This document shows, piece after piece, positions 773-49,690 of a stretch of DNA of 64,000 nucleotides (position 1 is the stretch's first letter; each line of letters starts with the position of its first letter). A model generated the notes under the pieces. The model did not search any database. It saw only the letters and a list, made by a program, of their open reading frames with translations, and was not told the DNA's origin. The position numbers and the translations under genes are program-made. The stretch comes from Candidatus Parcubacteria bacterium (GTDB lineage Bacteria; Patescibacteriota; Minisyncoccia; Phycocordibacterales; UBA2100). Location of the stretch: the NCBI GenBank assembly GCA_041168925.1, contig JBEEJY010000019.1:2384-66383 (forward strand), given 5' to 3'.

Positions 773-2227
773 ATGACAAATGCATCTGTAAAGAATACGT
801 TCGCTGTTCTGTCAGTGTTCGCCACGTTGGCGATTTCTATGGGCGCATTTGCCAGCATCGCCAATGCCCAGGAGGACATGGGATATATTGACTCCTACGG
901 TGACAACTTGGGTTACGTTGATAGCTATGGAGACAATCTCGGCTATGTCGATAGCTACGGCGACAACCTTGGTTACATGGATACGTACGGCGACAACCTT
1001 GGTTACATGGACAGCTATGGCAGTAATCTCGGCTATCTCGATTCGTACGGTGATAATCTGGGCTACCTCGACACCTACGGCAATAATCTCGGCTACATGG
1101 ATACTTACGGAAACGACATCTCTGGCACCGACGTGTACGGCACGGATGTGACGTACGAAGAGGGGATCGGATACTCGTACCACGAATATACCGACACCTA
1201 CGGCTACGACACGTATTCCTCTGGCGGTTATGGCGGCTACGGCGGTGGTTTTGGAGGCGGATTCGGCGGAGGCGGTTACGGAGGCGGACGCACCTTCTCG
1301 GCTCCTGGCTTTCCTAGCTTCTCGTACCCGAGCTATCCTTCCTACCCGAGCTATCCGCCCTCTCGTCCGCAGCCCCCGGTTTATCCTCCGGTCATAACGA
1401 CTCCGGTCTCAAACGTTAGCAACAACACCTGCACCGGCGGAAGCTGCAACAACTACAACAACAATAACTACAATTACAACGACAACAGCATCAACGGCAG
1501 CTTCAACACCAACACGAACACCAATACGAATGTGGCGCCGGTCGTGCCTGTCGCGATCGCTCCGGTGACCTATCCTATCAGCTACACGATTCCGCAAACC
1601 CCGGTCATCTACCCGGCTCCGGTCCAAAACCTCTACTGCGTCATCACGGCGGGCCCGACTTCGATCAAGAACGGCCAGCCTGCAGTACTCGCGTGGAGCG
1701 CGCCGGGCGCCACGAGCGCATGGCTCTCCGATGGCATCGGTATCGTCTCTGCGAACGGTTCTCTCACGGTACGCCCGAGCCGCTCGACGACGTACATCCT
1801 CACGGTGACCGGTCCTGGCGGCACGCGCACCTGCTCGACCGTCGTCAATGTCTCAGGCATGCCGTACGTCTCGCTCTCGCAGATTCCGTACACCGGCTTC
1901 GACTTCGGTCCGTTCGGCAACATGATCTACTGGCTCTCGCTCGCGCTTTTCGCGATCGCCGGCGCCTATCTCTTGGTCTATTACCGAGGCGGCATGCTCT
2001 CGCTCGCGAGCGTCGCGCTCGCTCGCACTACCCGATCGGTCGCGGAAGCGCCGGTACGAATAGTGGAAGCGGCAGCGAGGAAAATCGAGGAAGTAGTCAT
2101 CGCTCCGGTAGCCGCATCTCTCGAGAACCTTCCGGCGTTCGAAAAACGCGCCGTAACCAATGACTCGCTGACCTTCAGCGCATCGAAAAACGGCGAAGCG
2201 CCCCGCATCACCATCAATCGCAACTAA
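773..2227 (+). CDS. Repeat-rich type-I membrane/surface protein
   Basis: Signal peptide, then 8 copies of (D/M)(S/T)YG(D/N)NLGY(V/M/L), then a Gly/Tyr-rich block, an SYPSYPSYP run and an Asn-rich tract. It also carries a roughly 75-aa Cys-bracketed beta-domain, a C-terminal TM helix and a cytoplasmic tail. Confidence 0.75.
   Translation: MTNASVKNTFAVLSVFATLAISMGAFASIANAQEDMGYIDSYGDNLGYVDSYGDNLGYVDSYGDNLGYMDTYGDNLGYMDSYGSNLGYLDSYGDNLGYLDTYGNNLGYMDTYGNDISGTDVYGTDVTYEEGIGYSYHEYTDTYGYDTYSSGGYGGYGGGFGGGFGGGGYGGGRTFSAPGFPSFSYPSYPSYPSYPPSRPQPPVYPPVITTPVSNVSNNTCTGGSCNNYNNNNYNYNDNSINGSFNTNTNTNTNVAPVVPVAIAPVTYPISYTIPQTPVIYPAPVQNLYCVITAGPTSIKNGQPAVLAWSAPGATSAWLSDGIGIVSANGSLTVRPSRSTTYILTVTGPGGTRTCSTVVNVSGMPYVSLSQIPYTGFDFGPFGNMIYWLSLALFAIAGAYLLVYYRGGMLSLASVALARTTRSVAEAPVRIVEAAARKIEEVVIAPVAASLENLPAFEKRAVTNDSLTFSASKNGEAPRITINRN
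877..1120 (+). repeat. 30-nt tandem coding repeat, about 8 copies
   Basis: The unit gaYagctaYggMgacaaYctYggYtaYRtg repeats in frame inside the 773..2227 CDS. Confidence 0.8.
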
Positions 2228-9548: not shown

Positions 9549-10460
9549 ATGGCAAATCGTCACCTAGCCCGTTCCGTCGTTCTCCAAGTTCTCTTCGAGC
9601 GCGATTCCTCGGATGGCAAAATGACCTCTGATGAAGCGCTCTCGCGTCTCTCGGATTACTCGCAAGAATTCGGCGCGCGCGAATCCGATATGCCGTTCAT
9701 GAAAGATCTACTTAAGACGGCAATCGCGAAGCAAAAAGAGATCGACGATGTGATCACGCGCGCCGCTCCCGAGTGGCCGCTCGAAAAAATAGCCGCGATC
9801 GATCGCAATGTCTTGCGGCTCGGCCTGACTGAGCTTCTCTTCGCCGACCGCACGCAGGTGCCGGCCAAGGTCGCGATCAATGAGGCGATCGAGCTCGCGA
9901 AATCCTTCGGCTCCTCCTCGTCGGGCCGTTTCGTCAACGGTGTTTTGGGCGCAGTCTACATCGAGCTCGGCGAGCCGGGGAAAAACGAAGGCGGCGCGCG
10001 CAAAAAAGATCCTCAGAAGCCGGTAAAAATGCTGACGGAACACCTGGCCGGAGCGGTCGTCTATGCAAGACACGAAGGCGAGACGTACCTCGCGTTCGTG
10101 CACGACATTTTCGGCCACTGGACGATCTCAAAAGGGAAGATTGAGGATGGCGAAGACGTCAAGCAAGGCGCAGTACGCGAGATAAAAGAAGAGATGGGAA
10201 TCGACATCACGATCATCCAGGAACTCGGAGTCAATGAGTACCTGGCCAACGACAGCAAAGTCGAGGGCGGCAAGAAGAGAAAGCGCGTCACCTATTTTCT
10301 CGCGGAATCGCCTTTTAGCGAGCTCCACCTCGGCTCTTCGGGAGGGCTCGACGACGCGCAATGGTTCCCGCTTTCCGCGGTAGGAGATCTCAATTTTTAC
10401 GACGACACGCTCAAAATCATCGTCCCGGCGATCAATGCGCTGGCAAAGAAGCAAAAATGA
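9549..10460 (+). CDS. nusB: NusB-like antitermination domain fused to a NUDIX hydrolase domain
   Basis: The N-terminal half resembles NusB (ARSVVLQVLFERD...NGVLGAV). The C-terminal half carries a Nudix box (GHWTISKGKIEDGEDVKQGAVREIKEEMGI). Confidence 0.8.
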   Translation: MANRHLARSVVLQVLFERDSSDGKMTSDEALSRLSDYSQEFGARESDMPFMKDLLKTAIAKQKEIDDVITRAAPEWPLEKIAAIDRNVLRLGLTELLFADRTQVPAKVAINEAIELAKSFGSSSSGRFVNGVLGAVYIELGEPGKNEGGARKKDPQKPVKMLTEHLAGAVVYARHEGETYLAFVHDIFGHWTISKGKIEDGEDVKQGAVREIKEEMGIDITIIQELGVNEYLANDSKVEGGKKRKRVTYFLAESPFSELHLGSSGGLDDAQWFPLSAVGDLNFYDDTLKIIVPAINALAKKQK

Positions 10461-28646: not shown

Positions 28647-28880
28647 TCAGCGTGATCCGACCGAGAATGTCTTGGAAGGCGAGCGATGGCCTTTGACGAT
28701 ACGTACGTGTTTGCCAGGCACCTTGCACGCGAGCGCGAGGAGCTCGATAACGCGGGAATTGGCCGCATTGCGCTCCGGCTTCTCGCGCACGGCTATCTCG
28801 AAGCGGTCGTCGGCCACTTTTCGCACGCTCTCTCTGCGGACACCCGTTCTGACTTTCACTTTCACGAGCATATCCGCCAT
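28647..28880 (-). CDS. DUF167/YggU-family small protein
   Basis: MADMLVKVKVRTGVRRESV...GKHVRIVKGHRSPSKTF matches the UPF0235 pattern (VKVKPGA...V.LVSG..SR.K). Confidence 0.6.
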   Translation of the reverse strand: MADMLVKVKVRTGVRRESVRKVADDRFEIAVREKPERNAANSRVIELLALACKVPGKHVRIVKGHRSPSKTFSVGSR

Positions 28881-28908
28881 CTTCTCATTTTTTCGACTTT
28901 GTAGTAGG

Positions 28909-29979
28909 ATGTCGCGCAATATGGCCGGAAAAAAGGGAAATTTGGCGCAGTTCATTCTCGAGCGCAACAAGAAGCAAAGCGCCGAATTTGCCTCGCCTGG
29001 CGCGCAGTTGGCTCGTCGCCTGTATCGTGCCCAGCACCCGAGCGAGATCATCGCGCTCAAGTGCATGGATGGCCGGCTCAACCTCGCGATCATGACCTCG
29101 ACGCCTCCCGGCATCATCAAGCCCTATCGCAATATCGGCGGCAAGTTCGACCTCGGCTGGCCCTATTTCGGCAGGCTCATTCTCGACGACATCGAGTATT
29201 CGGTCTCGAAAGGCAGACCGACCATCGTACTCTCCACGTATCATTTCTCGAAAGGGGATGAGCATCGCGGCTGTGCGGGGCATGGGTACGATACCGAAGC
29301 TGCCCGCAAGGGCGCGATCAGGCTCGCGCAACAATTCATCTCCGCTTTCGGTGGCAACCATGTTGCCGTTTTTTCGATGGTCGTCGGTATCGAGACCGAT
29401 CAAGGCGGGCTCGTTTTTCATGGCGAAGGGAAAGACACGTTCGATGTCGCCCGCCATACGGACGCTTCGGAAGACGGAATTCACAGCCACCTTCGCCACA
29501 TGTTCCCGAAACTTCCCGAGCACATCATAGACGACCTTACTCCGCTCGTCGCGGGTAATCAGAAGTATGTCGAAGCTGTCCGTGCGCAAAGGCGTCCCAT
29601 AGTCGAAATGGAGCATAAAGAACAGATCATCGCGGTCGGCCGCGGTTTCGACTGGCTCCATTTGCCGAATCGCGCGCTCATGATCGGGCCGTACGATCCG
29701 CAGTGGGAAGCGGCAGTCGCGGTGGCGGGCAACATCGTGCTCGGCAACATGAAATCCAAGCGAATTCCGGAAAGGGAAGGCGTACTCCTCCTCATCTCCG
29801 CGCCCTTCCGCTCGGTCGGCGCCGATCAGGGAGTTGCGGCGGAAAAAGTACAATTTCTCGAGCGGGAGGCGCTGCGCGTCTTGGAGGAGCGCGTGCCGAA
29901 TATCGTGAAAAAATTGAAAGTCCTCGCAGGCACCGTCGACCTCAACACCCGCCAATTTCACGTCTTACGACGGTCATAA
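28909..29979 (+). CDS. Hypothetical 356-aa protein with beta-carbonic-anhydrase-like metal-site motifs
   Basis: C52-M-D54-G-R56 and H119-R-G-C122 fit the beta-CA CxDxR and HxxC motifs with plausible spacing. About 150 aa of extra C-terminal sequence is unassigned. Confidence 0.55.
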   Translation: MSRNMAGKKGNLAQFILERNKKQSAEFASPGAQLARRLYRAQHPSEIIALKCMDGRLNLAIMTSTPPGIIKPYRNIGGKFDLGWPYFGRLILDDIEYSVSKGRPTIVLSTYHFSKGDEHRGCAGHGYDTEAARKGAIRLAQQFISAFGGNHVAVFSMVVGIETDQGGLVFHGEGKDTFDVARHTDASEDGIHSHLRHMFPKLPEHIIDDLTPLVAGNQKYVEAVRAQRRPIVEMEHKEQIIAVGRGFDWLHLPNRALMIGPYDPQWEAAVAVAGNIVLGNMKSKRIPEREGVLLLISAPFRSVGADQGVAAEKVQFLEREALRVLEERVPNIVKKLKVLAGTVDLNTRQFHVLRRS

Positions 29980-37194: not shown

Positions 37195-37198
37195 TTAG

Positions 37199-37270
37199 TG
37201 CGCGGTGAGGGGATTGAACCCCCGGCCTACCCTACGTCAAAGGGTCGCTCTACCACTGAGCTAACCGCGC
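37199..37270 (-). tRNA. tRNA-Val (GAC)
   Basis: Hand-folded cloverleaf: 7-bp acceptor stem, anticodon loop TTGACGT, T-loop TTCAATC. CCA is not encoded. Confidence 0.8.
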
Positions 37271-39127: not shown

Positions 39128-40172
39128 TCAGATACATTTGGCACTCGGGTAGAACCTGAGGAATGAGGCAATTTAATATCTGGAAGGGAGTGCGCGGGGC
39201 GCGGCGTTTGTACAACGATACGGTACGGTGGCACCATATGGCCACTGAACGGGCGAAAAAGCGATTAACAATCATAGCGTTTTGGGAGAAGCATGGAGGG
39301 GAGGCGACGGTCGATGCCTTCGGAGTATCAAGACGGACGCTGTTCCGTTGGAAGGCGAAGCTCCGGAAGGGCAACGGCCACGTCGACGGCCTGAACGAGA
39401 GAAGTACCGCACCGCTGCGGCGCAGGAAACGGGTCTATCCTCCGGGTTTCCTCGAGAGCGTCATCACGCTGCGAAAGGACCATCATCGCATCGGCAAGAA
39501 GAAGATCGCCTCCCTTCTCAACGTCTCAGAGTCATATGCCGGACGCTGCCTCTTCGATCTCAAGGAACGCGCTCTTCTGCCTGCGGGAACAACACTCTCG
39601 TTGTACGCGAGGAGTGGACACTTGCACGAGAGAAAACCCATGTATCGCAAGAAGATACGGCGATCGCACAAGCGAGGTATCGAAGTCGATACGGTCATCC
39701 GATTCGTGGACGGCATCAAGCGCTACATCTACACCGCCATCGACGTGGAGAAGAAGTTCGCCCTCGCCGGAGCGTACACCAACCACTCGTCGGCCTCTGC
39801 GGCTGATTTTCTCGGGAAACTCCGTACGGTCGCTCCCTTCGACATCCAAGAGATCCAGTCCGACAATGGAAGCGAGTTCGCGCTCCGATTCGAGGAGGCC
39901 TGTACAGCGCTCGGTATCACGCACTTCCACACGTATCCGCGTTCTCCCAAGATGAACGCTCACGTCGAACGCTTCAACCGGACGCTCTCGGAAGACTTCA
40001 TCCAGCACCACCGCGGAGCTCTTCGTGACGATCTGAAGCGCTTCAACGAACTCCTGATCGACTGGCTTCTGTGGTACAACACCGAACGACCTCACCAGTC
40101 TCTTGGAATGCTCTCTCCACTGCGCTATATTGTCAGGGACTTAACAGCACACCAGTGCCAAATGTACTGGAC
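39128..40172 (+). mobile_element. IS481-like insertion sequence (about 1.05 kb)
   Basis: Imperfect terminal inverted repeats of about 20 bp: cagaTACATTTGGCACTcgg at the left end and its complement (AGTGCCAAATGTActgg) at the right end. One transposase ORF inside. Confidence 0.7.
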
Positions 40173-40188
40173 TAGTACAATGCTTTGA
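39238..40188 (+). CDS. DDE transposase, HTH plus rve integrase core (IS481/IS3-like)
   Basis: DDE triad contexts (TAIDVEKK, SDNGSEF, HVERFNRTL) and YNTERPHQSLG. Start placed at MATERAKKRL. The stop lies about 16 nt beyond the right inverted repeat. Confidence 0.85.
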   Translation: MATERAKKRLTIIAFWEKHGGEATVDAFGVSRRTLFRWKAKLRKGNGHVDGLNERSTAPLRRRKRVYPPGFLESVITLRKDHHRIGKKKIASLLNVSESYAGRCLFDLKERALLPAGTTLSLYARSGHLHERKPMYRKKIRRSHKRGIEVDTVIRFVDGIKRYIYTAIDVEKKFALAGAYTNHSSASAADFLGKLRTVAPFDIQEIQSDNGSEFALRFEEACTALGITHFHTYPRSPKMNAHVERFNRTLSEDFIQHHRGALRDDLKRFNELLIDWLLWYNTERPHQSLGMLSPLRYIVRDLTAHQCQMYWTSTML

Positions 40189-40666: not shown

Positions 40667-40738
40667 TGACCCTATCGGGAATCGAACCCGAGTTAACAGC
40701 TTGAAAAGCTGCTGTCCTAACCACTAGACGATAGGGCC
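40667..40738 (-). tRNA. tRNA-Glu (TTC)
   Basis: Hand fold: anticodon loop TTTTCAA, T-loop TTCGATT, one G-U pair in the acceptor stem. No CCA encoded. Confidence 0.75.
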
Positions 40739-40870
40739 CCGTTTATCCTCCATAGCTTTAGCGACGGAGGGCTTCGCCGATGGCTTCGCAGGGAAAGGCT
40801 GCGAAGCGGCGAATGGTGAGCAGTTTAGCGCATTTTTCTGCGCCCATAAAGTGTGGTATTTTGTCCGCTT

Positions 40871-40955
40871 GGAGAGGTGCGTGAGTGGTTGAAACGAGCG
40901 GTTTCGAAAACCGCCATACCGAAAGGTATCGGGAGTTCGAATCTCCCCCTCTCCG
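40871..40955 (+). tRNA. tRNA-Ser (CGA), type II
   Basis: Anticodon loop TTCGAAA, long variable arm (ATACC-gaaa-GGTAT), 3-bp D stem. No CCA encoded. Confidence 0.8.
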
Positions 40956-40980
40956 AAATGGTGTACACTAGAGCACTGTC

Positions 40981-43095
40981 ATGCTGGGGTCAGATATTTT
41001 CAGGAAATTCGCCGGCGGATCCAGCATCTTTTCCCTCACGATCTTTTTGAGCGCGTTTTTGCTCTTCGTCATCCAGCCCGTCGCGGGCAAGCACATATTG
41101 CCGTACTTCGGGGGAAGTTCTTCTGTATGGGCGACGTCGCTCCTCTTTTTCACCGGCATGCTTTTCGTCGGCTACGCGTATGTCTACGTTTTGACGACGC
41201 TTGACGGGCGCACGCAGGTGCGGGTACATGCGAGCCTCGTTTTGCTCGCCGCGATCGCGACGCTCGTCGCAATCCGTTCGTGGCACTCGATGTACCCGTC
41301 GCTTGAGGGTCTGGCGAGCGTTTCGCAGCCGTCGCTTGGCGTCCTGCTCGCGCTCTTCTTCGGCATAGGCGCGCCATACTTCGTGCTCTCGACGACCGGC
41401 CCTCTGTTGCAGTTTTGGTATGGACTCACTTTCGATAGGGAACCGTATCAACTCTACGCGCTCTCCAACGCCGGCTCGCTCATCGCGCTTTTGGCGTATC
41501 CCTTTTTGATTGAGCCGCGTCTTTCGCTGCACGAGACGGAAAATGCCTGGGTGCTGCTTTTTGCGTGCTATGCGCTCGCGAGCGTCGCGATTTGTTGGGG
41601 AGCGAAGCGCGCGGGCCGCGTAGCGGCCCGCGCTTCCATTCACTCGCAAGACGAGACGAACACGGGCACGCGCGCGCTCTACGTCGCGCTCGCGGCACTG
41701 CCTTCTTTCCTCATGGTCGCGACGACGACCGAGATCACGCAGACGATCGCGCCCGTGCCTTTGCTGTGGGTCGTGCCACTCGCGTTCTACCTCATCACCT
41801 ACATCCTTGCTTTTCGCGGCTACGGCAGCTCGATCTTTACGCCGCTCATCCTGCTCGGCGCCTGCGCCTTCGCCTACGTGAGCACTGCAACCGACGTTTA
41901 CCACGTCTCGACTCAGATCAGCTCGTACCTCTTCTTGCTATTCGTGGCCGGTCTTTTCGCGCATGCCACACTCTATAGCCTCCGCCCGAAAACGCGCGAG
42001 CTGCCGCTTTTCTATCTCCTCCTTTCCTTCGGCGGCATGCTCGGCGCGCTTTGCGCCGGTATGCTGGCGCCGCTGCTTTTCGATTCGTTCTGGGAATTTC
42101 CCTTCGGGCTCGCGCTCGCCGCCGCAGCAGGCGCGCTTGCGCTCTCGGAGCAATTTTTCCCGCGCATACTCGACGCCGGCAGGATCAGGCTCGCGAAAAT
42201 CATCATGCTCTTCGGGATCGCCGTACTCTTTACGCGTCTCATGGCCGCGCCGTATGAGTATGAGGTGCCCTTCGTCGCGTCGCGCGATTTTTACGGCGCG
42301 GTGCAGGTGAGATTCCACAACGCCATGACTTCGCTCATGCACGGCACGACGCTTCATGGCATCCAATCGACCGACCGCTCGCTGCGTTTCCTGCCGAGTT
42401 CGTACTACACGCCGGGGAGCGGGGTAGGGCGCGCGATCATCTATGAGCAAGATTTGCGGCGAGGGCAAAAAATCAAAGTCGGCGTCCTCGGGCTCGGTAC
42501 GGGCTCGATCGCGGCGCATTGCCGGAATGGACAAGGGGGACGTACGGGCGATGAATTCGTATTTTATGAAATCGATCCGCGGATCGAGCGAATCGCCCGT
42601 ACGTATTTCTCCTACCTTGCGCACTGCAAGGGCTCCGAAGTCCGGCTCGGCGACGGGCGGCTCTTGATGCAGAAAGAATTGTCGGAAGGCGCGCCCGGCA
42701 ATTACGATCTCGTCGTGATGGATGCTTTCGCCGACGACACCGTGCCCGCGCATTTGCTCACCATGCAGGCGGTGAAGCTCTATGCCGCGCATGCGCGCAC
42801 TCCAGAGAGCATCATCGCGATCCACACCTCAAACCGCTACCTCGACCTCCCCCCGGTCATTTTCAAGGAGGCGGCCGCGCTCGGCCTCAACGCGATGATG
42901 ATCTGGGATAACGGCGAATCGAATCCGGGCGGCAGTCCTTCGCAATGGGTACTTCTCGTGAAAGACCCGACCGTGTTCGGAGCCAACGTTTTCGCGCATG
43001 CGAGCAGCTTCGTTGCGGACGTTGATCAGGCGCCGCTATGGACCGACGACTACCAGAGCCTCTTTTCGGTCGTGGATCTCGCGATGCCCTGGTAG
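40981..43095 (+). CDS. Polytopic membrane domain fused to a spermidine-synthase-like (class I SAM-dependent) domain
   Basis: About 10 TM helices over the first 400 aa. The C-terminal domain carries VGVLGLGTGSIA, YEIDP and DLVVMDAF motifs. Confidence 0.7.
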   Translation: MLGSDIFRKFAGGSSIFSLTIFLSAFLLFVIQPVAGKHILPYFGGSSSVWATSLLFFTGMLFVGYAYVYVLTTLDGRTQVRVHASLVLLAAIATLVAIRSWHSMYPSLEGLASVSQPSLGVLLALFFGIGAPYFVLSTTGPLLQFWYGLTFDREPYQLYALSNAGSLIALLAYPFLIEPRLSLHETENAWVLLFACYALASVAICWGAKRAGRVAARASIHSQDETNTGTRALYVALAALPSFLMVATTTEITQTIAPVPLLWVVPLAFYLITYILAFRGYGSSIFTPLILLGACAFAYVSTATDVYHVSTQISSYLFLLFVAGLFAHATLYSLRPKTRELPLFYLLLSFGGMLGALCAGMLAPLLFDSFWEFPFGLALAAAAGALALSEQFFPRILDAGRIRLAKIIMLFGIAVLFTRLMAAPYEYEVPFVASRDFYGAVQVRFHNAMTSLMHGTTLHGIQSTDRSLRFLPSSYYTPGSGVGRAIIYEQDLRRGQKIKVGVLGLGTGSIAAHCRNGQGGRTGDEFVFYEIDPRIERIARTYFSYLAHCKGSEVRLGDGRLLMQKELSEGAPGNYDLVVMDAFADDTVPAHLLTMQAVKLYAAHARTPESIIAIHTSNRYLDLPPVIFKEAAALGLNAMMIWDNGESNPGGSPSQWVLLVKDPTVFGANVFAHASSFVADVDQAPLWTDDYQSLFSVVDLAMPW

Positions 43096-43107: not shown

Positions 43108-43545
43108 TTACTCATCCGGCGTGCGCTCGCTTCGTATGATCGTGACCGGAACGGGAGGGATCATCGGCAATCCGTCTTTCAGCGGTCCCACGACGATAGA
43201 CGCGGGGCCCGTGTATCCAGTGAGATCGGCGTCGATCGAAAATGTGTAGTAGCCATTTGCCTGATACTGCGCTCCGCGCGGCGCGATTCCTTCCCATATC
43301 GTCACATCGCCTTCGATCGGGATAGTGCCGTCGGTCACACGAACGTAGACGCCGCCCTCTTGATTGTCGAATGCCTGGCTTTCCGCAATACCCGTGATCT
43401 CGAATGTCGTGCTTGCCGTCGTTTGCCCCGCAAAGGGGTAGGAGATATGGATTTGCGGCGCGCGCGGCGCGCGCAGGATCTCAAACACGGCGATGCAAAG
43501 CAAGAGACCGGCGAGAATTGCGAGGACAAGGAGATTCTTTTTCAT
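43108..43545 (-). CDS. Secreted/TM-anchored hypothetical protein immediately downstream of the giant gene
   Basis: 145 aa with signal/TM MKKNLLVLAILAGLLLCIAV and a beta-rich body. It starts 5 nt after the giant-gene stop, so it is likely co-transcribed. Confidence 0.6.
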   Translation of the reverse strand: MKKNLLVLAILAGLLLCIAVFEILRAPRAPQIHISYPFAGQTTASTTFEITGIAESQAFDNQEGGVYVRVTDGTIPIEGDVTIWEGIAPRGAQYQANGYYTFSIDADLTGYTGPASIVVGPLKDGLPMIPPVPVTIIRSERTPDE

Positions 43546-43549
43546 ACGG

Positions 43550-46500
43550 CTATTGTATACCGACGGTCGTCGATGCGGCTTTCGACGGCCCGTCGATCGT
43601 CGTGCAGGCGAGGATGAACGTCGTCGGACTCGCGAGTGCAGGCGTCGTAATCGCGCCGTTCAGATTCGTCTTTCCGGCGTTATCCGCAGTAAACCGCGGG
43701 AAGGCCGGGCTCGATATCACGCAGGAGTCCATGCCGGTCGTGATCCAGCCGAGCTGTGATTTCTCTCCGCGCTTCACGGTCTTTGGATTGGCGATCAAGA
43801 TGATTCGCGGAGGTTTACCCGTTTTTGGCGTCGAGGTTGCGCGCCCATCCGGAGCAGGAGCCGACGTTGCCGAAGGGGACACCGACACGCCGACGCTGCA
43901 GCTTGTAGGGGAGGACGAACCGGCGGCGCCGTAGACCGTGAGCGTGTAGGTCGTTGTCACTGCCGGGTTTTGCGTCATTGAGCCGGAGAGCGGCACTGAA
44001 CCGAAGCCGGACATAATGGCGCTCACGGCATTCACGCTCGACCAGGTGAGTGTCGTCGCTGCATTCGGCGAGACGGTCGTAGGCGAGGCCGATATCGTGC
44101 ACGAAACGATGTCATACCTATTCGGCGTTCCGGTATTCGAAGCCGGGAATGCTTGTTGCGGCGGTCGCGGTGGAGGCGGTTGACCGCCTTGCGAGCCCAT
44201 ACCATCGGCACCGGCACTATTTCCTTGCATGCCGTTCTGTCCGGAAGGGGAAGCGCCAGGACCGCCCGGATAACCCGGACCTCCGGGGGTGCTCGGGCTC
44301 GGTTCTGTCGGGCGGTTATCCTCGAAAAGATACTCATCTGGCTTTTGCGGATTCGGCGCGCCTTTCGGCAGCGTATCGTTGGTCGCCGGCAGCGGAGCTT
44401 TCGTATCGGGATTTATGATCGGTTTCCCTTCGGGATCGACAAGAAGGTCCACTTTATTGTCCGGACCGATGGACCCTTCGGGGAGCGGAAGCGTACCGAC
44501 GGCGTTGCCATCCTCGTCGGTAATATCGTGCATAACGAGAGGATTGATCGTACCTCCTCCGATCATTTGAGGCTGATAGGAAGCCCTGTCGCCCATTCCG
44601 CCTTTTGCGAGCTGCGCCGGATCGAGCCCGCCGGCGTGCGAGGGAAACATGCCGGTTTCCCAGCTTCCGGCCTTGCCGTAATTGGTGGGTCCGAGATCGT
44701 AATGCATCCAGTCGCGCGTCACGCCGCTTCCGAAATAGCCGCCCCAGTTGCCGCGGCTCTTGAATTCCGGGAACAACTGATCCTGGTAATGCTTCACGTT
44801 TTGCATGAAGATGCGATACGGCTCGTACGACGAAGGAGTCTTAAGCCAGGAGAGCGGTTTTCCTTGCGCGTCGTGCAGCTGTACATCGCACGCGAGCGCG
44901 TACGTGCCGCCCTGGTAGGTCCCGCGCTGTTCGTGATACGAACCCGACCCGTTGCGGTCTCCCGCGCATCCGTTCACCCGCGCGTGCCAGCCGGGCGGCA
45001 AATCCTTGGTCGCTTCTTCCATCGCCTTGCGCACAATGGGATGCATCGTCGTCGTGACTCCGGAGCCGGGACCGCCCCAGCCATAGAGGCGCGGTTCGGC
45101 GGATCTCGGCGGGGTCGCTGTCTTTGCCGCCTCGCCGTCTTTGCGCTTGGCGGTAAATGTCTTCCACTGAGCATCGCAGGGCATCGTGCCGTTGGCGCAG
45201 CCGCGCGAGAGGGCGGCTTGCTTCCGGAATGCCTGCTCGCAAGCGGATTTGTCGCCGAGCGTGCACTCGAAAGCCGTACCTGTCTGCGGATCCACCATGT
45301 ACGGGCCATTCGGCGCGGGCACTTCGGGAGTGCCTTCGACCGGAGCACCGCTGCCTTTCGGCGTCGCATAGTCGCGGACGTTGCAATATTCGCACCCCGA
45401 GGAGAATGTTGCGCCCATGTTGGAATAATTCTGGTTGCCGTTGATCTGGTTCGCGATATTTTGCAGATCCGAAAGTCCGCCGCCAAACCCGACGTACCAC
45501 ACGGGCATGTTGGGTTTACCTATTTTGTTGAGATAGTCTTTCATGCCTGCGGGATTCGGACAGCCGCCTCGCTCACAAATGATCGCAACTGCCGCCGGAT
45601 GCTGCGCAAGCGGCATGAGCCCGTTTAGGCCGGGATTTTTGACGGCGACGCCAAGACCGTTTTGTTGCGCAAGGTCCATGGCCTCCTTATTTGCTTCGAG
45701 GGAATAGCCGTCCTGGTTGTCCATCTCGACATAGGGGATGTTCTGGTTCTTGTAGTGGGTAAATTGACCTTGAAGGTTCTGCTTGAACCCGGGACCGCGC
45801 GGATCCGGCCGATCTTCTTTGTATTGATTTCCGGTACCGGTTCGCGGAAGATAGGGTCCATACTTTCCCGCTGTCTGTCCTTGCGTGAACATATTGACGT
45901 ATCCTATGCAGGCATCGGCATTGCCACACTGGCTCTTCGAGCCGAAGAATTGCGTTTCAACGACCCGGCCGCGCGTATCGCCGCCTCCGCCTCCTCCGAT
46001 AAGGTAACTGAGCGGCTTGCCGGCGAGCGCGCCAGCGCCCGCCCCCGCCGCGCGCGGCATCGGCACGGCCTTGAGACCGGGTACTCGCGCTTTAGCAAGT
46101 TTTTCCTTCAATTCTGGCGGCGGTGGATCGCCTTTGCAACCTCCTTTGGGACACCGAGAGCTCTGCATACTCGCGACCAATGAGGGGAAGATATCGTTTC
46201 CGTTTGTCAGTAATTTGTTATACTCGGCGGCTTTCTCTCGCGTCAGCGGTCCTAGGAGTCGCCACGAGACCTGTTGGCCCGTAGGATAAACAGTATTGCC
46301 GGAAGGAGTATAGCCAGCGCTCTCAGCAAGCGGCGCGTTGATGTCGATGCCTTTCCCCGTCCACGGCGACGGGCCAATATCTACCTGACGCACCACGCGA
46401 CGCTGCCCGTTCGGCAGACGTACCAGAAAATACTGCCCAAGCGTCGCCCAATTATAGAGCGCGATGCCCGGTTCAGTTTGCGGTGCGCCAGGAAGTGCAT

Positions 46501-49500
46501 TTTTTCCGTTATCGCCCGCGTCTCGCCACACGTATCGACATCCAGCGTACGGTCCCCAGCCACACTGACCGAATAAAGAACTTCTGGCGGAGTTGGTGAA
46601 AGATGCGGTATTTATGCCAAGCGGTTGCTGTTCTAGCGGCGCCGCTTGTGCGCTGCCAGCGAACTCTTTTTTGAACGCATCCCACACCTTCGCGAAGATA
46701 TCGGCAAGTTTTTGCAGCGTCGTGCGCTGCTCGTCGTTTTTCTGCGCGTTCGCCTGACTCAACCCTTCGGCGCCCGGTACTCGCGGCGCTTGCGTGTTGA
46801 GCGGCTGCCCTTGCAGCTGTGTGGGAAGCGACGGAGTGTTCGCATCAGGTGGCGTCGCGGCGGTCGTTTTGGAGGGAGGAGTCGCCGTCGGCTTTTCAGG
46901 CTGCGTCAGATCGGAGACGCCGGTGCCCTTACCTTTCGCCGCTTCTCCGCGCGCTTGCGCTTCACCTTCGATCGTCGAAGGTGCTCGCGTCGGCTTGAGA
47001 TCGGGCGAGGTTATGGTACCGCCAGAGGTGCCCTGCCGGTTTTTCGAGTCTGTCGGAGTCACACTTTGCGCTTGCGCGATCTTGTCGCCTTGCCGCGCGG
47101 TCTCCGAGGAGCCGGGGGAGTTCGTGGTAGGACATGTAGGAAGCGAGAGATGCGCTTGTCGCTCCTGCGCCGATGCGCTCGCGGGCAGGCAGATCGTCGA
47201 AGGCACGGCAGATTCGGCATCGGGCACCGTCGGTACGCTGCCTTTGATGATATTGGGCGTATATGCGAGCAGTGGTTGCGGAGCAAATGCTGCCGCGATT
47301 CCCTGCGCTTGAGGTGAAGTTGGCGACCATGAGAAAGACGGAAACGGCACGCCGGAAGCGGGAGATGAGGGATAAGACTGCCCGCCTCCTCCCTGACCTG
47401 ATTGTCCCGTCGCTCCGGCGTCGCCGCCTTCGCCTCCTCGAGCCTTCGGCGCTTCGCCGGATGAGAGCTTGGCAGGGCTTGGTGTCGGTTGTTTTTCGGG
47501 TGTGGTGCCTTTTGCGGGCTTTTCTTTCTCCGGAGTCGGCTCCGCCGCGTTCTTTTCCTTCGTCGGCGCCGGGGCTGATTGCGGCGGTTCGGACGGCTTC
47601 GCCTCCGCGATCTTCGTCTTGTCTTGCGGCTGCTCCGCAGGACGAGGCGGGACCTCGGCTAGCTTCGGTTGCTCTTGGGGCTGCTCTTTTGGCTGCTCCT
47701 GCGGGACAACCTGCGGCTCGGGAAGCTCCTTTGGCTTCACTTCCACTTCCGGCAGCGTCTCGGCATATTTTGGCGTTTCCTCCGGTTTGAATTCCGGGAC
47801 AGGCAGTTCGGTCTCGGGAATCACCTCGACCGGGATCACTTCTAGAGGCGTGCTCGGGCTGTAACGAACGCCCTGCGTGATGGAAAGGGCGCGCTCGCGA
47901 TTCCACGCGGCGCGTAGCTCTTCGAGCGTTAGCGCACCCATGCCTTGGCGATCGTAATCCTCTTGCAGGGCGCTCCCGAGTTCGCGCGCTATGCTGACGC
48001 CTGAATCGGGGTTCTGGCCGCGGTAGAAGGGCGAATCGAGACTTTCCAACCACTTCGTATACGAGTCTCCGGCGGCTCCTTCACCGGTGCCGAGGTACCA
48101 GTAGCCGTACCCTTTTGCTTCGAGATAGGCCGATCCTTTCCCCGTAAGGCCGTAATCCTCACCGCGGAATATCGAGCACGACGATACGCCGCAGAACGTC
48201 GCGGGCAGATCGCTTCCCGAAAATTCGCCGGCCTTTCTTTTCACCTCTTCTCTGCGCGCGTTCCAGTCTTCGTCTGACATGCCCTCGGGGCGCGCGATAA
48301 CGGTGGGAGGCGGCGTCGAGGGGCCGCCGGGCTCCGGTTTCCAGGGCGACGGCTCTCCGGGAGTAAGACCCTTCATCTCTGCCGTCAAGGCTTCGCCGGA
48401 TTTCTGCGCCGGAAGCGGTTCTCCGTACGCGGCGAGTTGCATATCGATGTCGTTGAAAAGGCTCTGGCGGATCCCAGACGGGCAGCCCGTATCAGGGCAC
48501 ACCGCGCCCGTACCGGCATCGGCGTAAACATTGAGCTCATGCTGTATGTCCGTCGAGTTGGCCGGAGCGTCGGGAAGAGCGGGTTCAGTACCGTTGAAAA
48601 ACCCTCCGACGCTCGGATTGGACCACAGGTCGCTGCCAAATTCGGCGATCGCGAGGGGCGCGGAGAAACCGGTGAAGACCGAATAGAGCGGCGCGTAGCC
48701 CTGGTCGTAGAATTTCTCGATGTCGCCGACCACGAGCTTATTGGTGTCTTGCAAAAGCTGCCAGTATTCCTGATACCACGGAATGCCTTGCGTCGCAGGT
48801 ACGTTACTTTCAAATCCGGTACTGCCCGAGGATCCGGGAGTCTTGGTGTAGGTGTAGTATTCATCGACGCCGCCCGGGCCCATCGGCGGATAGGTAAGCG
48901 CATATTGATCCTTGAGCTCCGGAATGTACTCGACGATCGCCGCTCCGGTCGTTTCGGGATACGGCGCGGGATTTGCGTACCCTGATATTTGGGCATACAC
49001 GGTCGCCTGATCGAAGTCTCCCCGATTTGCCGCGAGCTGCGCGCTCGCTTGCGCGAACGCGTCTTTGTTGTCGGGCGTTGCGTAAGAATAGGCGATGATG
49101 CCGCCCAAATAATCCTCGGAACCGGCGACGGCTTGCTGGATCGAGCCGATCGTATTCGGCGGATTTTCGAGCGTCACGGGCGCGCCTCCGTACGAGGTAA
49201 ATTCGACTTTGCCGCCGGAGGCCATGAGGCCGCGGATGAGCGCGAGATCCCCCTCACAATCAGGGCCCTTGATACAGCTACCGCCGTCCCATTTGACTTT
49301 GCCCGGCAACTTGGAAGCCTGTTTCGATTCGCAGTCTTTATGCTCCTTGCTTCCGGTCTTGCCGGCGCTATCGCACGGGTCTTTCTCTTTTTTGACGTCG
49401 GGCTTCCCGCTCTTGGCTTCTGAGACTTTCTCGGTCGAAGTTTTCGTCGAGTCTTTGTCTTTCACCGCGTCTTTCGGAGACTCATTGCTCGCATCGGAGG

Positions 49501-49690
49501 AGTATGCGGCCTCGAATCCGGCCTCATCGACCGACGCGATAAGCGCGCGCGAATCGGGATACAACGTCGCGCTTCCGAGCGAGATCCCGCTTGCGACGAG
49601 AAGGGAAAAAGCGACCGTGAGGAAGCCTTTGAAAATATAACCAACAAACCCCTCGTCTTCAGGGTGCATATACGCATTGAATGATAGCAA
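43550..49690 (-). CDS. Giant (2046 aa) secreted multidomain protein with peptidoglycan-hydrolase-like and Ig-like modules
   Basis: N-terminal signal/TM, then a Pro/Glu/Lys-rich linker (PEPQVVPQEQPKEQPQEQPK) and a Gly/Ser/Thr-rich spacer. An RlpA/3D-like double-psi beta-barrel block (LPNGQRRVVRQVDIGPSPWTGKGIDINAPLAESAGY) follows. A VanY/M15-like block (SGSYHEQ..GGTYALACDV....DWMHYDL) is also present. The C-terminus carries 2-3 Cys-bracketed Ig-like domains (L.W...TTY.LTV). Confidence 0.85.
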   Translation of the reverse strand: MLSFNAYMHPEDEGFVGYIFKGFLTVAFSLLVASGISLGSATLYPDSRALIASVDEAGFEAAYSSDASNESPKDAVKDKDSTKTSTEKVSEAKSGKPDVKKEKDPCDSAGKTGSKEHKDCESKQASKLPGKVKWDGGSCIKGPDCEGDLALIRGLMASGGKVEFTSYGGAPVTLENPPNTIGSIQQAVAGSEDYLGGIIAYSYATPDNKDAFAQASAQLAANRGDFDQATVYAQISGYANPAPYPETTGAAIVEYIPELKDQYALTYPPMGPGGVDEYYTYTKTPGSSGSTGFESNVPATQGIPWYQEYWQLLQDTNKLVVGDIEKFYDQGYAPLYSVFTGFSAPLAIAEFGSDLWSNPSVGGFFNGTEPALPDAPANSTDIQHELNVYADAGTGAVCPDTGCPSGIRQSLFNDIDMQLAAYGEPLPAQKSGEALTAEMKGLTPGEPSPWKPEPGGPSTPPPTVIARPEGMSDEDWNARREEVKRKAGEFSGSDLPATFCGVSSCSIFRGEDYGLTGKGSAYLEAKGYGYWYLGTGEGAAGDSYTKWLESLDSPFYRGQNPDSGVSIARELGSALQEDYDRQGMGALTLEELRAAWNRERALSITQGVRYSPSTPLEVIPVEVIPETELPVPEFKPEETPKYAETLPEVEVKPKELPEPQVVPQEQPKEQPQEQPKLAEVPPRPAEQPQDKTKIAEAKPSEPPQSAPAPTKEKNAAEPTPEKEKPAKGTTPEKQPTPSPAKLSSGEAPKARGGEGGDAGATGQSGQGGGGQSYPSSPASGVPFPSFSWSPTSPQAQGIAAAFAPQPLLAYTPNIIKGSVPTVPDAESAVPSTICLPASASAQERQAHLSLPTCPTTNSPGSSETARQGDKIAQAQSVTPTDSKNRQGTSGGTITSPDLKPTRAPSTIEGEAQARGEAAKGKGTGVSDLTQPEKPTATPPSKTTAATPPDANTPSLPTQLQGQPLNTQAPRVPGAEGLSQANAQKNDEQRTTLQKLADIFAKVWDAFKKEFAGSAQAAPLEQQPLGINTASFTNSARSSLFGQCGWGPYAGCRYVWRDAGDNGKNALPGAPQTEPGIALYNWATLGQYFLVRLPNGQRRVVRQVDIGPSPWTGKGIDINAPLAESAGYTPSGNTVYPTGQQVSWRLLGPLTREKAAEYNKLLTNGNDIFPSLVASMQSSRCPKGGCKGDPPPPELKEKLAKARVPGLKAVPMPRAAGAGAGALAGKPLSYLIGGGGGGDTRGRVVETQFFGSKSQCGNADACIGYVNMFTQGQTAGKYGPYLPRTGTGNQYKEDRPDPRGPGFKQNLQGQFTHYKNQNIPYVEMDNQDGYSLEANKEAMDLAQQNGLGVAVKNPGLNGLMPLAQHPAAVAIICERGGCPNPAGMKDYLNKIGKPNMPVWYVGFGGGLSDLQNIANQINGNQNYSNMGATFSSGCEYCNVRDYATPKGSGAPVEGTPEVPAPNGPYMVDPQTGTAFECTLGDKSACEQAFRKQAALSRGCANGTMPCDAQWKTFTAKRKDGEAAKTATPPRSAEPRLYGWGGPGSGVTTTMHPIVRKAMEEATKDLPPGWHARVNGCAGDRNGSGSYHEQRGTYQGGTYALACDVQLHDAQGKPLSWLKTPSSYEPYRIFMQNVKHYQDQLFPEFKSRGNWGGYFGSGVTRDWMHYDLGPTNYGKAGSWETGMFPSHAGGLDPAQLAKGGMGDRASYQPQMIGGGTINPLVMHDITDEDGNAVGTLPLPEGSIGPDNKVDLLVDPEGKPIINPDTKAPLPATNDTLPKGAPNPQKPDEYLFEDNRPTEPSPSTPGGPGYPGGPGASPSGQNGMQGNSAGADGMGSQGGQPPPPRPPQQAFPASNTGTPNRYDIVSCTISASPTTVSPNAATTLTWSSVNAVSAIMSGFGSVPLSGSMTQNPAVTTTYTLTVYGAAGSSSPTSCSVGVSVSPSATSAPAPDGRATSTPKTGKPPRIILIANPKTVKRGEKSQLGWITTGMDSCVISSPAFPRFTADNAGKTNLNGAITTPALASPTTFILACTTIDGPSKAASTTVGIQ

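What the first reader, a model, noticed from the sequence alone, without database searches (positions are those of the whole stretch)
43108..49690. Giant secreted protein combining RlpA/3D-like and M15-peptidase-like modules with Ig-like domains, plus a small secreted partner
This 2046-aa protein is the largest gene in the window. It has an N-terminal signal/TM, a low-complexity Pro/Glu/Lys linker and a Gly/Ser/Thr-rich spacer. One block resembles the double-psi beta-barrel of RlpA/MltA 3D domains (…VRLPNGQRRVVRQVDIGPSPWTGKGIDINAPLAESAGY). Another matches the Zn-site pattern of VanY/M15 D,D-carboxypeptidases (S-x-H-x-x-G…A-x-D … W-M-H-Y-D). Two to three C-terminal Cys-bracketed Ig-like domains are shared with the repeat protein at 773..2227. 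A 145-aa secreted protein begins 5 nt after its stop (43108..43545), placed as an immunity, chaperone or anchoring partner would be. A surface-tethered multi-enzyme of this type could remodel the cell's own wall, or that of a host or prey cell if the organism is an episymbiont. It is the most system-like accessory locus in the window.
Basis: partly seen in the sequence, partly recalled or inferred. Interest (0 to 1): 0.7.

Follow-up and report, generated by a model that had tools for sequence, protein, structure and literature searches.

The report
Membrane-tethered three-enzyme cell-wall cutter
A 2,046-residue membrane-anchored surface protein of a tiny Parcubacteria (CPR) bacterium strings three probable cell-wall-cutting modules, otherwise found in phage tail and spike lysins, on long flexible linkers, which makes it a good candidate tool for opening a neighbouring cell's wall; the small gene behind it is an unconserved orphan.

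Summary
ORF 43550..49690(-) encodes an intact 2,046-aa protein (2,039 aa from the ATG) with one N-terminal hydrophobic anchor, about 400 aa of Pro/Glu/Lys and Ala/Pro/Thr/Ser/Gly/Gln linker, and two C-terminal Cys-bracketed repeats. A 145-aa ORF starts 4 nt after its stop codon.

No Pfam, NCBIfam or PDB-sequence model recognises the protein. An exhaustive HMMER search found 737 representative relatives for residues 1020-1720, which resolve into three modules.

The modules recur in phage tape-measure proteins, a gp5/VgrG-like spike protein and tail-cluster proteins. The order DPBB–B–C–Ig is shared with other Parcubacteria giants.

The partner is an orphan and is absent beside six related giants. 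The 704-aa gene is convergent, not upstream.

Verdict: a new variant of a known kind, of moderate interest.

The parts
43550..49690 (-). Giant gene, 2,046 codons from TTG (2,039 from the ATG at 49669); stop codon TAG at 43550-43552
49562..49651 (-). Residues 14-43: the only hydrophobic segment. It is an N-terminal signal-anchor or signal peptide.
   Evidence: Hydropathy scan
47855..49303 (-). Residues 130-612: N-terminal globular region of unknown fold. Residues ~488-592 weakly resemble the same region of Parcubacteria giants P0024 and P0042.
   Evidence: No Pfam, PHROG or PDB hit; no close relatives; weak similarity E 1e-5 to 2e-6
46631..47854 (-). Residues 613-1020: about 400 aa of low-complexity stalk (Pro/Glu/Lys, then Ala/Pro/Thr/Ser/Gly/Gln)
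   Evidence: Composition; no DNA tandem repeats
46196..46609 (-). Module A, residues 1028-1165: RlpA/expansin-type double-psi beta-barrel. Invariant residues are W1055, D1057, D1104-x-G-P and I-D1116-I.
45347..46027 (-). Module B, residues 1222-1448: probable (beta/alpha)-barrel glycosidase distantly related to GH114. Invariant residues are N1266, E1292, D1296, D1324-N-x-D1327, K1351-N, E1373 and E1434-Y.
   Evidence: Alignment A3; 15 of 26 members hit Pfam GH114 weakly, best E=1e-3; one faint TM1410-family hit; fused to CHAP, GH108 and PG_binding_1/3 in relatives. Fold not predicted.
44561..45058 (-). Module C, residues 1545-1710: divergent LAS/M15 (VanY/M15_4-like) zinc peptidase. Putative ligands are H1586, D1602 and H1663; the putative catalytic residue is D1660. 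D1665 is also invariant.
44117..44560 (-). Residues 1711-1858: Pro/Gly-rich linker
43856..44116 (-). Residues 1859-1945: first Cys-bracketed Ser/Thr-rich repeat (Ig-like by sequence pattern only), shared with ORF 773..2227
   Evidence: blastp 41% identity, E=1e-7; alignment; PHROG 2155 'virion structural protein' E=8e-11
43553..43804 (-). Residues 1963-2046: second repeat of the same type, at the distal C-terminal tip
43108..43545 (-). 145-aa orphan ORF in the same operon (4-nt spacer). It has an N-terminal hydrophobic segment and a faint Big_7 (bacterial Ig) hint. Its function is unknown and it is not conserved with related giants.

Best explanation
The gene encodes a membrane-anchored extracellular giant protein of a Parcubacteria (CPR/Patescibacteria) cell.

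Architecture: a single N-terminal anchor holds it in the membrane. A ~480-aa domain of unknown function and a ~400-aa disordered stalk follow. A train of three cell-wall-cleaving modules then hangs on short linkers:
1. an RlpA/MltA-type double-psi beta-barrel, which would cleave or bind the glycan strand;
2. a GH114-like barrel glycosidase;
3. a divergent M15/LAS zinc peptidase, which would cut the stem peptide or cross-link.
Two Ig-like repeats sit at the distal tip and would bind the target surface.

Most likely mechanism: the tip domains bind a target surface, and the tethered enzymes cut glycan and peptide bonds of peptidoglycan, and possibly an associated wall polysaccharide, locally. I favour a neighbouring (host) cell's wall as the target, because the modules come from the repertoire that phage tails and spikes use to breach walls from outside.

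Shown: the ORF, the anchor, the linkers, the DPBB fold, the LAS-type fold with conserved ligands, the domain co-occurrences, and the conserved module order in other CPR giants.

Inferred: catalytic activity, substrates, and the host rather than self as target.

The 145-aa downstream ORF is co-transcribed, but it is a lineage-specific orphan and not a defining part of the device.
For: Real gene:
- The ORF is intact and identical in two assemblies.
- There is a single N-terminal hydrophobic segment, and the linker composition is as described.

Module A:
- AF2 pLDDT 92.7 and pTM 0.87.
- The D-x-G-P...G-x-I-D-I motif aligns to PA4485's 'NDRGP...GRIIDVS'.

Module C:
- AF2 pLDDT 82 and pTM 0.84.
- D1602, D1660, H1663 and D1665 are invariant, and H1586 is conserved in at least 90% of 22 family members.
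- P0125 matches the module C HMM at 8e-19. It carries the canonical W-H-P-S-G-R-A-I-D...WGGHF...D-R-M-H-F motifs and a Pfam Peptidase_M15_4 hit at E=2e-4.

Module B:
- 15 of 26 members give weak GH114 hits.
- Relatives are fused to CHAP, GH108, PG_binding_1 and PG_binding_3.

Context of the modules:
- A+C occurs in small TM proteins inside a phage tail/baseplate cluster.
- A occurs in a tape-measure protein, in a Gp5_OB+M15_4+DUF2345 spike-like protein, and alongside Amidase_2 or CHAP.
- C occurs in Rhizobium phage tape-measure proteins.
- A is found on 17 IMG/VR viral contigs and C on 10.

Conserved train:
- Parcubacteria giants P0024, P0037, P0042 and P0050 have Pfam DPBB_1 (E 5e-6 to 9e-4), then a module-B-like region (12-35 bits), then module C (235-257 bits). 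P0024, P0037 and P0042 then end in the same C-terminal repeats; none was found in P0050. P0024, P0037 and P0042 lie in core-chromosome contexts, with type IV pilus genes near two of them; P0050's locus was not examined.

Literature: predatory or episymbiotic CPR bacteria carry giant membrane proteins and secreted PG hydrolases thought to act on the host wall (PMC8080830).
Against: - No activity is shown.
- Neither the protein nor any module C family member passes any Pfam or NCBIfam model.
- Foldseek finds no significant PDB match for module C; the best is a Hedgehog domain at probability 0.33.
- The His-to-Asp ligand spacing is 12-15 residues rather than the canonical 6.
- hhalign against two bona fide M15_4 domains aligns only the C-terminal motif (probability 12%).
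- Module B's fold was not predicted, and its GH114 hits are all below the Pfam threshold.
- The top DPBB structural neighbours include non-enzymatic binders (expansins, kiwellin, a papain inhibitor), so module A could bind rather than cut.
- Nothing in the window links the gene to host attack. The neighbours are housekeeping genes, and Parcubacteria have their own peptidoglycan that such enzymes could remodel.
Confidence: 0.6

Rival explanations
1. Housekeeping autolysin. The giant remodels the Parcubacteria cell's own peptidoglycan, for daughter-cell separation, wall turnover, or making gaps for pili and other envelope machines. It does not act on another cell.
For: RlpA-type DPBB proteins and M15 peptidases are classical self-wall enzymes (established knowledge). 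The gene and its relatives lie in core chromosomal neighbourhoods: ftsA/ftsZ within ~6 kb here, and NusA, EF-P, RecA and ribosomal proteins elsewhere. Two related giants lie close to PilB/PilC-like genes, which fits local wall opening for pilus assembly.
Against: The closest relatives of modules A, B and C are in phage tail, tape-measure and spike proteins and multi-lysin fusions, i.e. outside-in wall breachers. A ~400-aa stalk plus distal binding repeats places the enzymes far from the cell's own membrane. Synteny with division genes is not conserved among the giants.
Confidence: 0.28
2. Toxin-immunity or enzyme-chaperone pair. The 145-aa protein is a dedicated immunity, chaperone or anchoring partner, and the pair is the functional unit.
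For: There is a 4-nt spacing between the giant's stop and the partner's start, on the same strand. The partner has an N-terminal hydrophobic segment, so it would be exported or membrane-anchored. It has a faint Big_7 Ig-like hint (E=0.23).
Against: The partner is a singleton cluster. It has no relatives in 185,579 species genomes or in JGI metagenomes by pattern scan plus tblastn, although that method finds close relatives only. No similar ORF occurs in any of 39 related loci or 156 related proteins. Six related giants are each followed by a convergent gene, not a small co-directional one.
Confidence: 0.1
3. Non-catalytic adhesin. The DPBB acts like an expansin or loosenin (a glycan binder), module C is a Hedgehog-like non-peptidase, and the protein is only a long sticky fibre for attachment.
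Against: The invariant Asp and His residues sit exactly at the positions used by MltA/RlpA-type and M15 enzymes across 22-26 diverse homologues. The modules co-occur with undoubted hydrolases: Amidase_2, CHAP, GH108 and M15_4.
Confidence: 0.1
4. Prophage or tailocin remnant. The gene is a degenerate phage tape-measure or hub protein left in the chromosome.
For: The modules are shared with tape-measure and hub proteins. The C-terminal repeats hit PHROG 2155, 'virion structural protein'. An IS integrase and three tRNA genes lie within 6 kb.
Against: There are no phage structural, packaging or lysis genes anywhere in the 64-kb window; the neighbours are DnaE, RpoBC, SMC, DnaG, RpoD, FtsAZ and tRNA synthetases. 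The protein has an N-terminal membrane anchor and no tape-measure PHROG or Pfam match. Related giants lie in conserved core-genome positions.
Confidence: 0.03

Closest known systems
RlpA / MltA-type DPBB lytic transglycosylases and the PA4485 DPBB protein (Pfam DPBB_1, PF03330; '3D' domain)
   Different: It does not score against PF03330 (E>1). It carries a ~35-residue N-terminal SWFG...W-x-D extension specific to its family. Its relatives are mostly in phage or spike proteins rather than outer-membrane lipoproteins. It has no SPOR domain.
M15 zinc peptidases of the LAS superfamily: phage L-Ala-D-Glu peptidases (T5, RB49, Ply500, LysB4; M15C), VanY/Peptidase_M15_4, VanX, Streptomyces DD-peptidase
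   Different: The His-Asp spacing is 12-15 residues instead of 6. There is a ~50-residue helical insertion and a conserved C-terminal A-G-x-W-x-x-G-L...G-M-G extension. It is undetected by all Pfam M15 models and by Foldseek. The zinc site and the bond cleaved are untested.
GH114 / TM1410-family (beta/alpha)-barrel glycosidases (endo-alpha-1,4-polygalactosaminidase; Pfam PF03537)
   Same: Module B members give repeated weak PF03537 hits over the stretch that contains the conserved hydrophobic-E-x-D-N-x-D-x-Y segment.
   Different: All hits are below the Pfam threshold. No solved structure matches by sequence. The domain partners (CHAP, GH108, PG-binding) point to the peptidoglycan layer rather than to secreted galactosamine polymers. 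The fold was not modelled.
Multidomain peptidoglycan hydrolases of envelope-spanning machines: PrgK and TraG(pIP501) VirB1-like proteins of monoderm T4SS, including Patescibacteria VirB1 homologues (PMC12102498); phage tape-measure or hub lysins
   Same: Several different muralytic domains sit on one membrane-anchored or machine-anchored polypeptide and act locally on the wall.
   Different: The domain types differ (SLT, CHAP and LytM there). There are no T4SS, T4P or tail genes next to this gene. This protein is far longer, with a ~400-aa stalk and distal Ig-like repeats.
Giant surface proteins of predatory or episymbiotic bacteria: Vampirococcus membrane giants (PMC8080830); Omnitrophota 'Archaeovorins' (bioRxiv 10.1101/2023.11.21.568195)
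   Same: It is a very large membrane-associated protein of an ultra-small, host-dependent lineage, with hydrolase domains proposed to act on prey or host walls.
   Different: Those proteins are described through known Pfam domains (WD40, TPR, PKD, GT, GH, SLT), and many are far larger. No homology with them was tested here. The DPBB–GH114-like–M15-like–Ig train was not described in the passages I read.

Membership tests
RlpA-like DPBB (Barwin-like endoglucanase superfamily) | Double-psi beta-barrel fold | tested here: met
RlpA-like DPBB (Barwin-like endoglucanase superfamily) | Match to the Pfam DPBB_1 (PF03330) or 3D-domain model at the gathering score | tested here: not met
   No hit for the whole protein or for the 204-aa segment, even at E<=10. 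The related CPR giants reach 20-28 bits against a 28.8-bit cut-off.
RlpA/MltA lytic transglycosylase (enzyme) | Catalytic Asp on the barrel (the MltA D308 / RlpA D157 equivalent, recalled from the literature) | tested here: inconclusive
   D1104 (in D-x-G-P) and D1116 (in I-D-I) are invariant in 26 homologues. D1104 aligns with the Asp of PA4485 'NDRGP'. Equivalence to the MltA/RlpA catalytic Asp was not checked on structures.
RlpA/MltA lytic transglycosylase (enzyme) | Produces 1,6-anhydro-MurNAc products from glycan strands | not testable with these tools
   This needs biochemistry.
Peptidase family M15 / LAS superfamily | Hedgehog/DD-peptidase fold | tested here: inconclusive
Peptidase family M15 / LAS superfamily | Zn ligands His, Asp, His plus a catalytic Asp/Glu-x-x-His | tested here: met
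   H1586 is conserved in at least 90% of members. D1602, D1660 and H1663 are invariant in 22 homologues. The same positions carry the canonical H-x-x-G-x-A-x-D...D-x-M-H in the bridging homologue P0125 and in Pfam-positive M15_4 domains. The spacing is atypical (H-x15-D here). 3D clustering could not be checked because the model coordinates are not exposed.
Peptidase family M15 / LAS superfamily | Match to a Pfam M15 model (M15_1 to M15_4, VanY) | tested here: not met
   0 of 22 module C members hit any M15 model at E<=5. Only the more canonical relative P0125 hits M15_4, at 22.1 bits against a 25-bit cut-off.
Glycoside hydrolase family 114 | Match to PF03537 at the gathering score (27 bits) | tested here: not met
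   15 of 26 members hit, best E=1e-3. All scores seen individually are 12-16 bits, below the 27-bit cut-off. The giant's own module gives no hit.
Glycoside hydrolase family 114 | (beta/alpha)8-barrel fold with acidic catalytic residues at strand ends | not tested
The eight hydrophobic strand-like blocks with invariant D1324, N1325, D1327, K1351, N1352, E1373 and E1434 are suggestive only.
Bacterial Ig-like domain (C-terminal repeats) | Ig-like beta-sandwich fold or a match to a Big/PKD-type model | not tested
   No Pfam hit. There is a PHROG 2155 hit at E=8e-11 and similarity to ORF 773..2227. No structure was predicted.
Effector-immunity (or enzyme-partner) gene pair | The partner gene is co-conserved next to homologues of the enzyme | tested here: not met
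   The partner is an orphan. There is no co-directional small gene after six related giants.
Phage tail tape-measure / hub protein | Tape-measure or hub model match and a tail gene neighbourhood | tested here: not met
   No tape-measure or hub PHROG or Pfam match for the regions scanned; residues 621-1019 and 1721-1857 were not scanned against PHROGs. The window holds core genes only.

The most novel reading that the evidence does not exclude
Parcubacteria giants that carry the collinear train DPBB – GH114-like barrel – divergent M15 peptidase – Ig repeats are a lineage-wide, membrane-tethered 'wall drill'. It was assembled from phage tail-lysin modules, and ultra-small episymbionts use it to open the host's cell wall at the contact site. 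All three catalytic modules would be enzyme families not yet described in Pfam or CAZy/MEROPS, and module B would be a new muralytic glycosidase family.
Probability: 0.3. Interest if true: 0.75.

Novelty: new variant of a known kind. Interest (0 to 1): 0.5.

Why it matters
How CPR/Patescibacteria episymbionts breach or remodel the wall of the cells they live on is largely unknown, and most of their large surface proteins are annotated 'hypothetical'.

This locus gives a concrete, testable candidate:
- three separable modules with named catalytic residues (D1104 and D1116; D1324 and E1373; H1586, D1602, D1660 and H1663);
- a module order shared with other Parcubacteria giants;
- clear evolutionary links to phage tail, tape-measure and spike lysins.

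It also flags three sizeable domain families, 737 representative clusters in all, that current Pfam and NCBIfam models miss. These include small TM-anchored A–C proteins in phage tail clusters that may be a new lysin class.

If the modules are active, they would add new muralytic folds or variants to the endolysin toolbox.

Tried and rejected
1. Direct Pfam, NCBIfam and PDB-sequence searches of the whole protein and of six segments found nothing useful.

2. The word-indexed homologue search with the whole protein returned only the protein itself. The same search with a concatenated partner + N-terminal query returned nothing, not even the protein itself.

3. Profile-versus-PDB sequence searches for modules A, B and C gave only a non-significant PA4485 hit for A (E=0.69) and nothing for B or C.

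4. The bridging homologue P0125 gave no PDB sequence hit.

5. hhalign of module C against two bona fide M15_4 domains aligned only the C-terminal motif, at probability 12%.

6. Foldseek of module C against the PDB gave no significant hit. AFDB50 was not available.

7. Pattern scans for the partner in species genomes and metagenomes, and for the N-terminal region in metagenomes, found nothing.

8. tblastn of modules A and B against GenBank phages, and of B against plasmids, gave no match.

9. Model coordinates are not exposed, so the zinc-site geometry could not be measured.

10. Rejected ideas:
- Prophage remnant: there are no phage genes in the window.
- T4SS VirB1-like role: there are no T4SS genes nearby.
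- Assembly artefact: the protein is identical in two assemblies and the gene has no tandem repeats.
Full report
**1. What is there**

ORF 43550..49690 on the minus strand is a single open frame of 2,046 codons from a TTG. Public annotation starts it at the ATG at codon 8, giving 2,039 aa, named 'MAG: hypothetical protein RLZZ416_628, Candidatus Parcubacteria bacterium'. Parcubacteria belongs to the Patescibacteria/CPR group.

It is the longest ORF in the window. The identical protein is encoded on two independent assemblies, and the gene has no DNA-level tandem repeats. It is therefore a real gene and not an assembly artefact.

Hydropathy shows one hydrophobic segment, at residues 14-43. Composition shows three low-complexity stretches: a Pro/Glu/Lys linker (613-760), an Ala/Pro/Thr/Ser/Gly/Gln spacer (761-1020), and a Pro/Gly linker (1711-1858).

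The 145-aa ORF 43108..43545(-) begins 4 nt after the giant's TAG. The 704-aa gene at 40981..43095(+) gives a weak fused MFS/spermidine-synthase hit. It is convergent with the pair, not upstream of it.

The rest of the window is core chromosome: DnaE, RpoB/C, SMC, DnaG, RpoD, FtsA/Z and tRNA synthetases. An rve-type IS integrase and three tRNA genes lie just beyond the 704-aa gene.

**2. Direct profile searches fail**

Neither the whole protein nor six segments of it match any Pfam, NCBIfam or PDB sequence.

However, the word-indexed homologue search was swamped by low-complexity words. I therefore searched the globular part alone. A linker-free query found eight relatives. An exhaustive HMMER search of residues 1020-1720 against 1.84 billion representatives found 737 proteins at E<=1e-3, and 314 at E<=1e-10.

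Mapping the hits back resolves three independent modules:
- **A**: residues 1028-1165
- **B**: residues 1222-1448
- **C**: residues 1545-1710

**3. Module A is a double-psi beta-barrel**

The 26-sequence family alignment has invariant W1055, D1057, D1104-x-G-P and I-D1116-I. AlphaFold2 on that alignment gives pLDDT 92.7 and pTM 0.87.

Whether the domain cuts, as MltA and RlpA do, or only binds, as expansins do, is not shown.

**4. Module C is a divergent M15/LAS peptidase (good but not complete support)**

In 22 homologues D1602, D1660, H1663 and D1665 are invariant, and H1586 is conserved in at least 90%. The AF2 model is confident (pLDDT 82, pTM 0.84).

A bridging homologue strengthens the case. 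P0125 matches the module C HMM at 8e-19. Yet it carries the canonical short motif W-H-P-S-G-R-A-I-D...WGGHF...D-R-M-H-F and a near-threshold Pfam Peptidase_M15_4 hit. Bona fide M15_4 domains in P0076 and in a phage protein read S-x-H-x-x-G-x-x-x-D...WGG-x-F/W...D-x-M-H. Module C therefore looks like an M15_4-type domain with a 6-9-residue insertion between the His and Asp ligands, plus a helical insertion.

Evidence against:
- Foldseek finds nothing significant.
- No family member hits a Pfam M15 model.
- hhalign aligns only the C-terminal motif.
- I could not measure the site geometry.

I put about 0.8 on the LAS/M15 assignment.

**5.

It is the most abundant of the three modules: 117 of the 157 proteins fetched carry it. 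Invariant residues are N1266, E1292, D1296, D1324-N-x-D1327, K1351-N, E1373 and E1434-Y.

Fifteen of 26 members give weak hits to Pfam GH114 (best E=1e-3). One member gives a faint hit to the TM1410 family. Nothing matches by sequence in the PDB.

In multidomain relatives it is fused to CHAP, GH108 muramidase, PG_binding_1 and PG_binding_3. That places it in the peptidoglycan-hydrolase world.

**6. Where the modules live**

| Architecture | Example |
|---|---|
| A+C in small TM-anchored proteins | P0003, inside a phage tail/baseplate cluster (T4 gp2, tail tube, T4 baseplate, a 1,378-aa M15_4 protein) |
| A inside a tape-measure protein | P0009, PHROG E=3e-12 |
| A in a spike-like protein | P0076: Gp5_OB + M15_4 + DUF2345 + A |
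| A next to Amidase_2 or CHAP | P0008, P0126 |
| C in phage tape-measure proteins | Rhizobium phages L338C and P11VFA |
| B–A and C–A fusions | P0010, P0012, P0039; P0125 |

Modules A and C also occur on 17 and 10 IMG/VR viral contigs respectively. These are the parts that phage tails and spikes use to open walls from the outside.

**7. A conserved train in Parcubacteria giants**

Module C also occurs in other giants of 1,452-5,617 aa. One of them is in a Candidatus Kaiserbacteria MAG.

P0024, P0037, P0042 and P0050 are mutual orthologues, about 42-49% identical over long stretches of up to ~1,100 residues. Each has, in this order:
- an N-terminal anchor;
- a near-threshold Pfam DPBB_1;
- a diverged module B (12-35 bits with my local HMM);
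- module C (235-257 bits);
- the same C-terminal repeats, seen in P0024, P0037 and P0042 but not found in P0050.

The window's protein is a divergent member of this architecture. Its DPBB and B modules are closer to the phage/proteobacterial types. It is the only one of the 157 proteins fetched that scores at family level for A, B and C together.

The loci examined for these giants (P0024, P0037 and P0042; P0050's was not fetched) and for the more distant P0017 are core-chromosome neighbourhoods. P0024 and P0042 lie close to PilB/PilC-like genes.

**8. The partner**

The 145-aa protein has an N-terminal hydrophobic segment and only a faint Big_7 hint. It is a singleton cluster.

It has no detectable relative in species genomes or metagenomes, although that method finds close relatives only. 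It has none in the related proteins or in ORFs of the related loci.

None of six related giants is followed by a small co-directional gene; each is followed by a convergent gene. Co-transcription here is likely, but a conserved enzyme-partner system is not supported.

**9. Mechanism**

Best reading (confidence 0.6 overall): an N-terminally anchored, extended surface protein whose distal repeats bind a target surface. Its three tethered modules cut glycan strands (DPBB and the GH114-like barrel) and peptide stems or cross-links (M15-like) locally.

I favour a neighbouring or host wall as the target, for three reasons:
- the phage-tail provenance of the modules;
- the long stalk and tip-binding layout;
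- what is known of CPR lifestyles, including giant membrane proteins and secreted wall hydrolases in Vampirococcus (PMC8080830; see also bioRxiv 10.1101/2023.11.21.568195 for Omnitrophota giants).

A self-wall autolysin role is the main rival (0.28). A pure adhesin, a toxin-immunity pair and a prophage remnant are less likely.

**10. Novelty and score**

Multi-domain muralytic proteins and CPR giant surface proteins are known kinds. Four things are new here:
- three Pfam-invisible domain families;
- the third enzyme;
- the conserved DPBB–B–C–Ig train in Parcubacteria giants;
- the link to phage tail lysins.

I class it as a new variant of a known kind, with interest 0.5.

Noticed in passing
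window 773..2227 (+): A 484-aa secreted protein with tandem 'GY-x-DSYGDNL' peptide repeats and Gly/Tyr- and Asn-rich tracts. It has one Cys-bracketed repeat that is 41% identical to the giant's first C-terminal repeat. It ends in 'SQIPYTG' followed by a C-terminal hydrophobic segment, which may be a sortase-like sorting signal. It has no Pfam hit.
   Followed up: partly
window 39163..40188 (+), with tRNA genes at 37198-37270, 40667-40738 and 40870-40956: An rve-type IS integrase is flanked by tRNA-Val, tRNA-Glu and tRNA-Ser genes just beyond the 704-aa gene. This may be an insertion hot spot next to the giant locus, and might explain why the locus differs from the syntenic position of related giants.
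   Followed up: no
window 40981..43095 (+): A 704-aa polytopic membrane protein gives a weak match to NCBIfam 'fused MFS/spermidine synthase' (E=1e-9, just below cut-off). It is convergent with the giant/partner operon and is not found near any homologue of the giant.
   Followed up: partly
L009 8001-9398 (P0003); also P0002, P0004, P0011, P0058: Small proteins of ~365-490 aa carry an Ala/Cys/Ser/Thr-rich N-terminal TM segment, module A and module C. P0003 is encoded at the end of a phage tail/baseplate cluster, right after a 1,378-aa M15_4 protein. This is a candidate undescribed class of virion-associated or signal-anchor-release lysins with no Pfam coverage.
   Followed up: partly
P0100 (5,617 aa) and P0130 / L008 1920-9989 (~2,690 aa, Candidatus Kaiserbacteria): Much larger giants carry module C near their C-terminal third. 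Their other regions were not analysed.
   Followed up: no
window 28672..29976 (+): A 435-aa ORF has a weak hit to the carboxysome-shell carbonic anhydrase catalytic domain (CsoSCA_cat, E=2.4e-6). This is unexpected for a Parcubacteria genome.
   Followed up: no
window 9549..10457 (+): A NusB–NUDIX fusion protein (both domains significant).
   Followed up: no
GenBank KF614509.1 26868-27122; MT778840.1 64262-64516: The tape-measure proteins of Rhizobium phages vB_RleS_L338C and P11VFA contain a segment 35% identical to the C-terminal half of module C. This may be an unannotated lysin domain in cultured phages.
   Followed up: no
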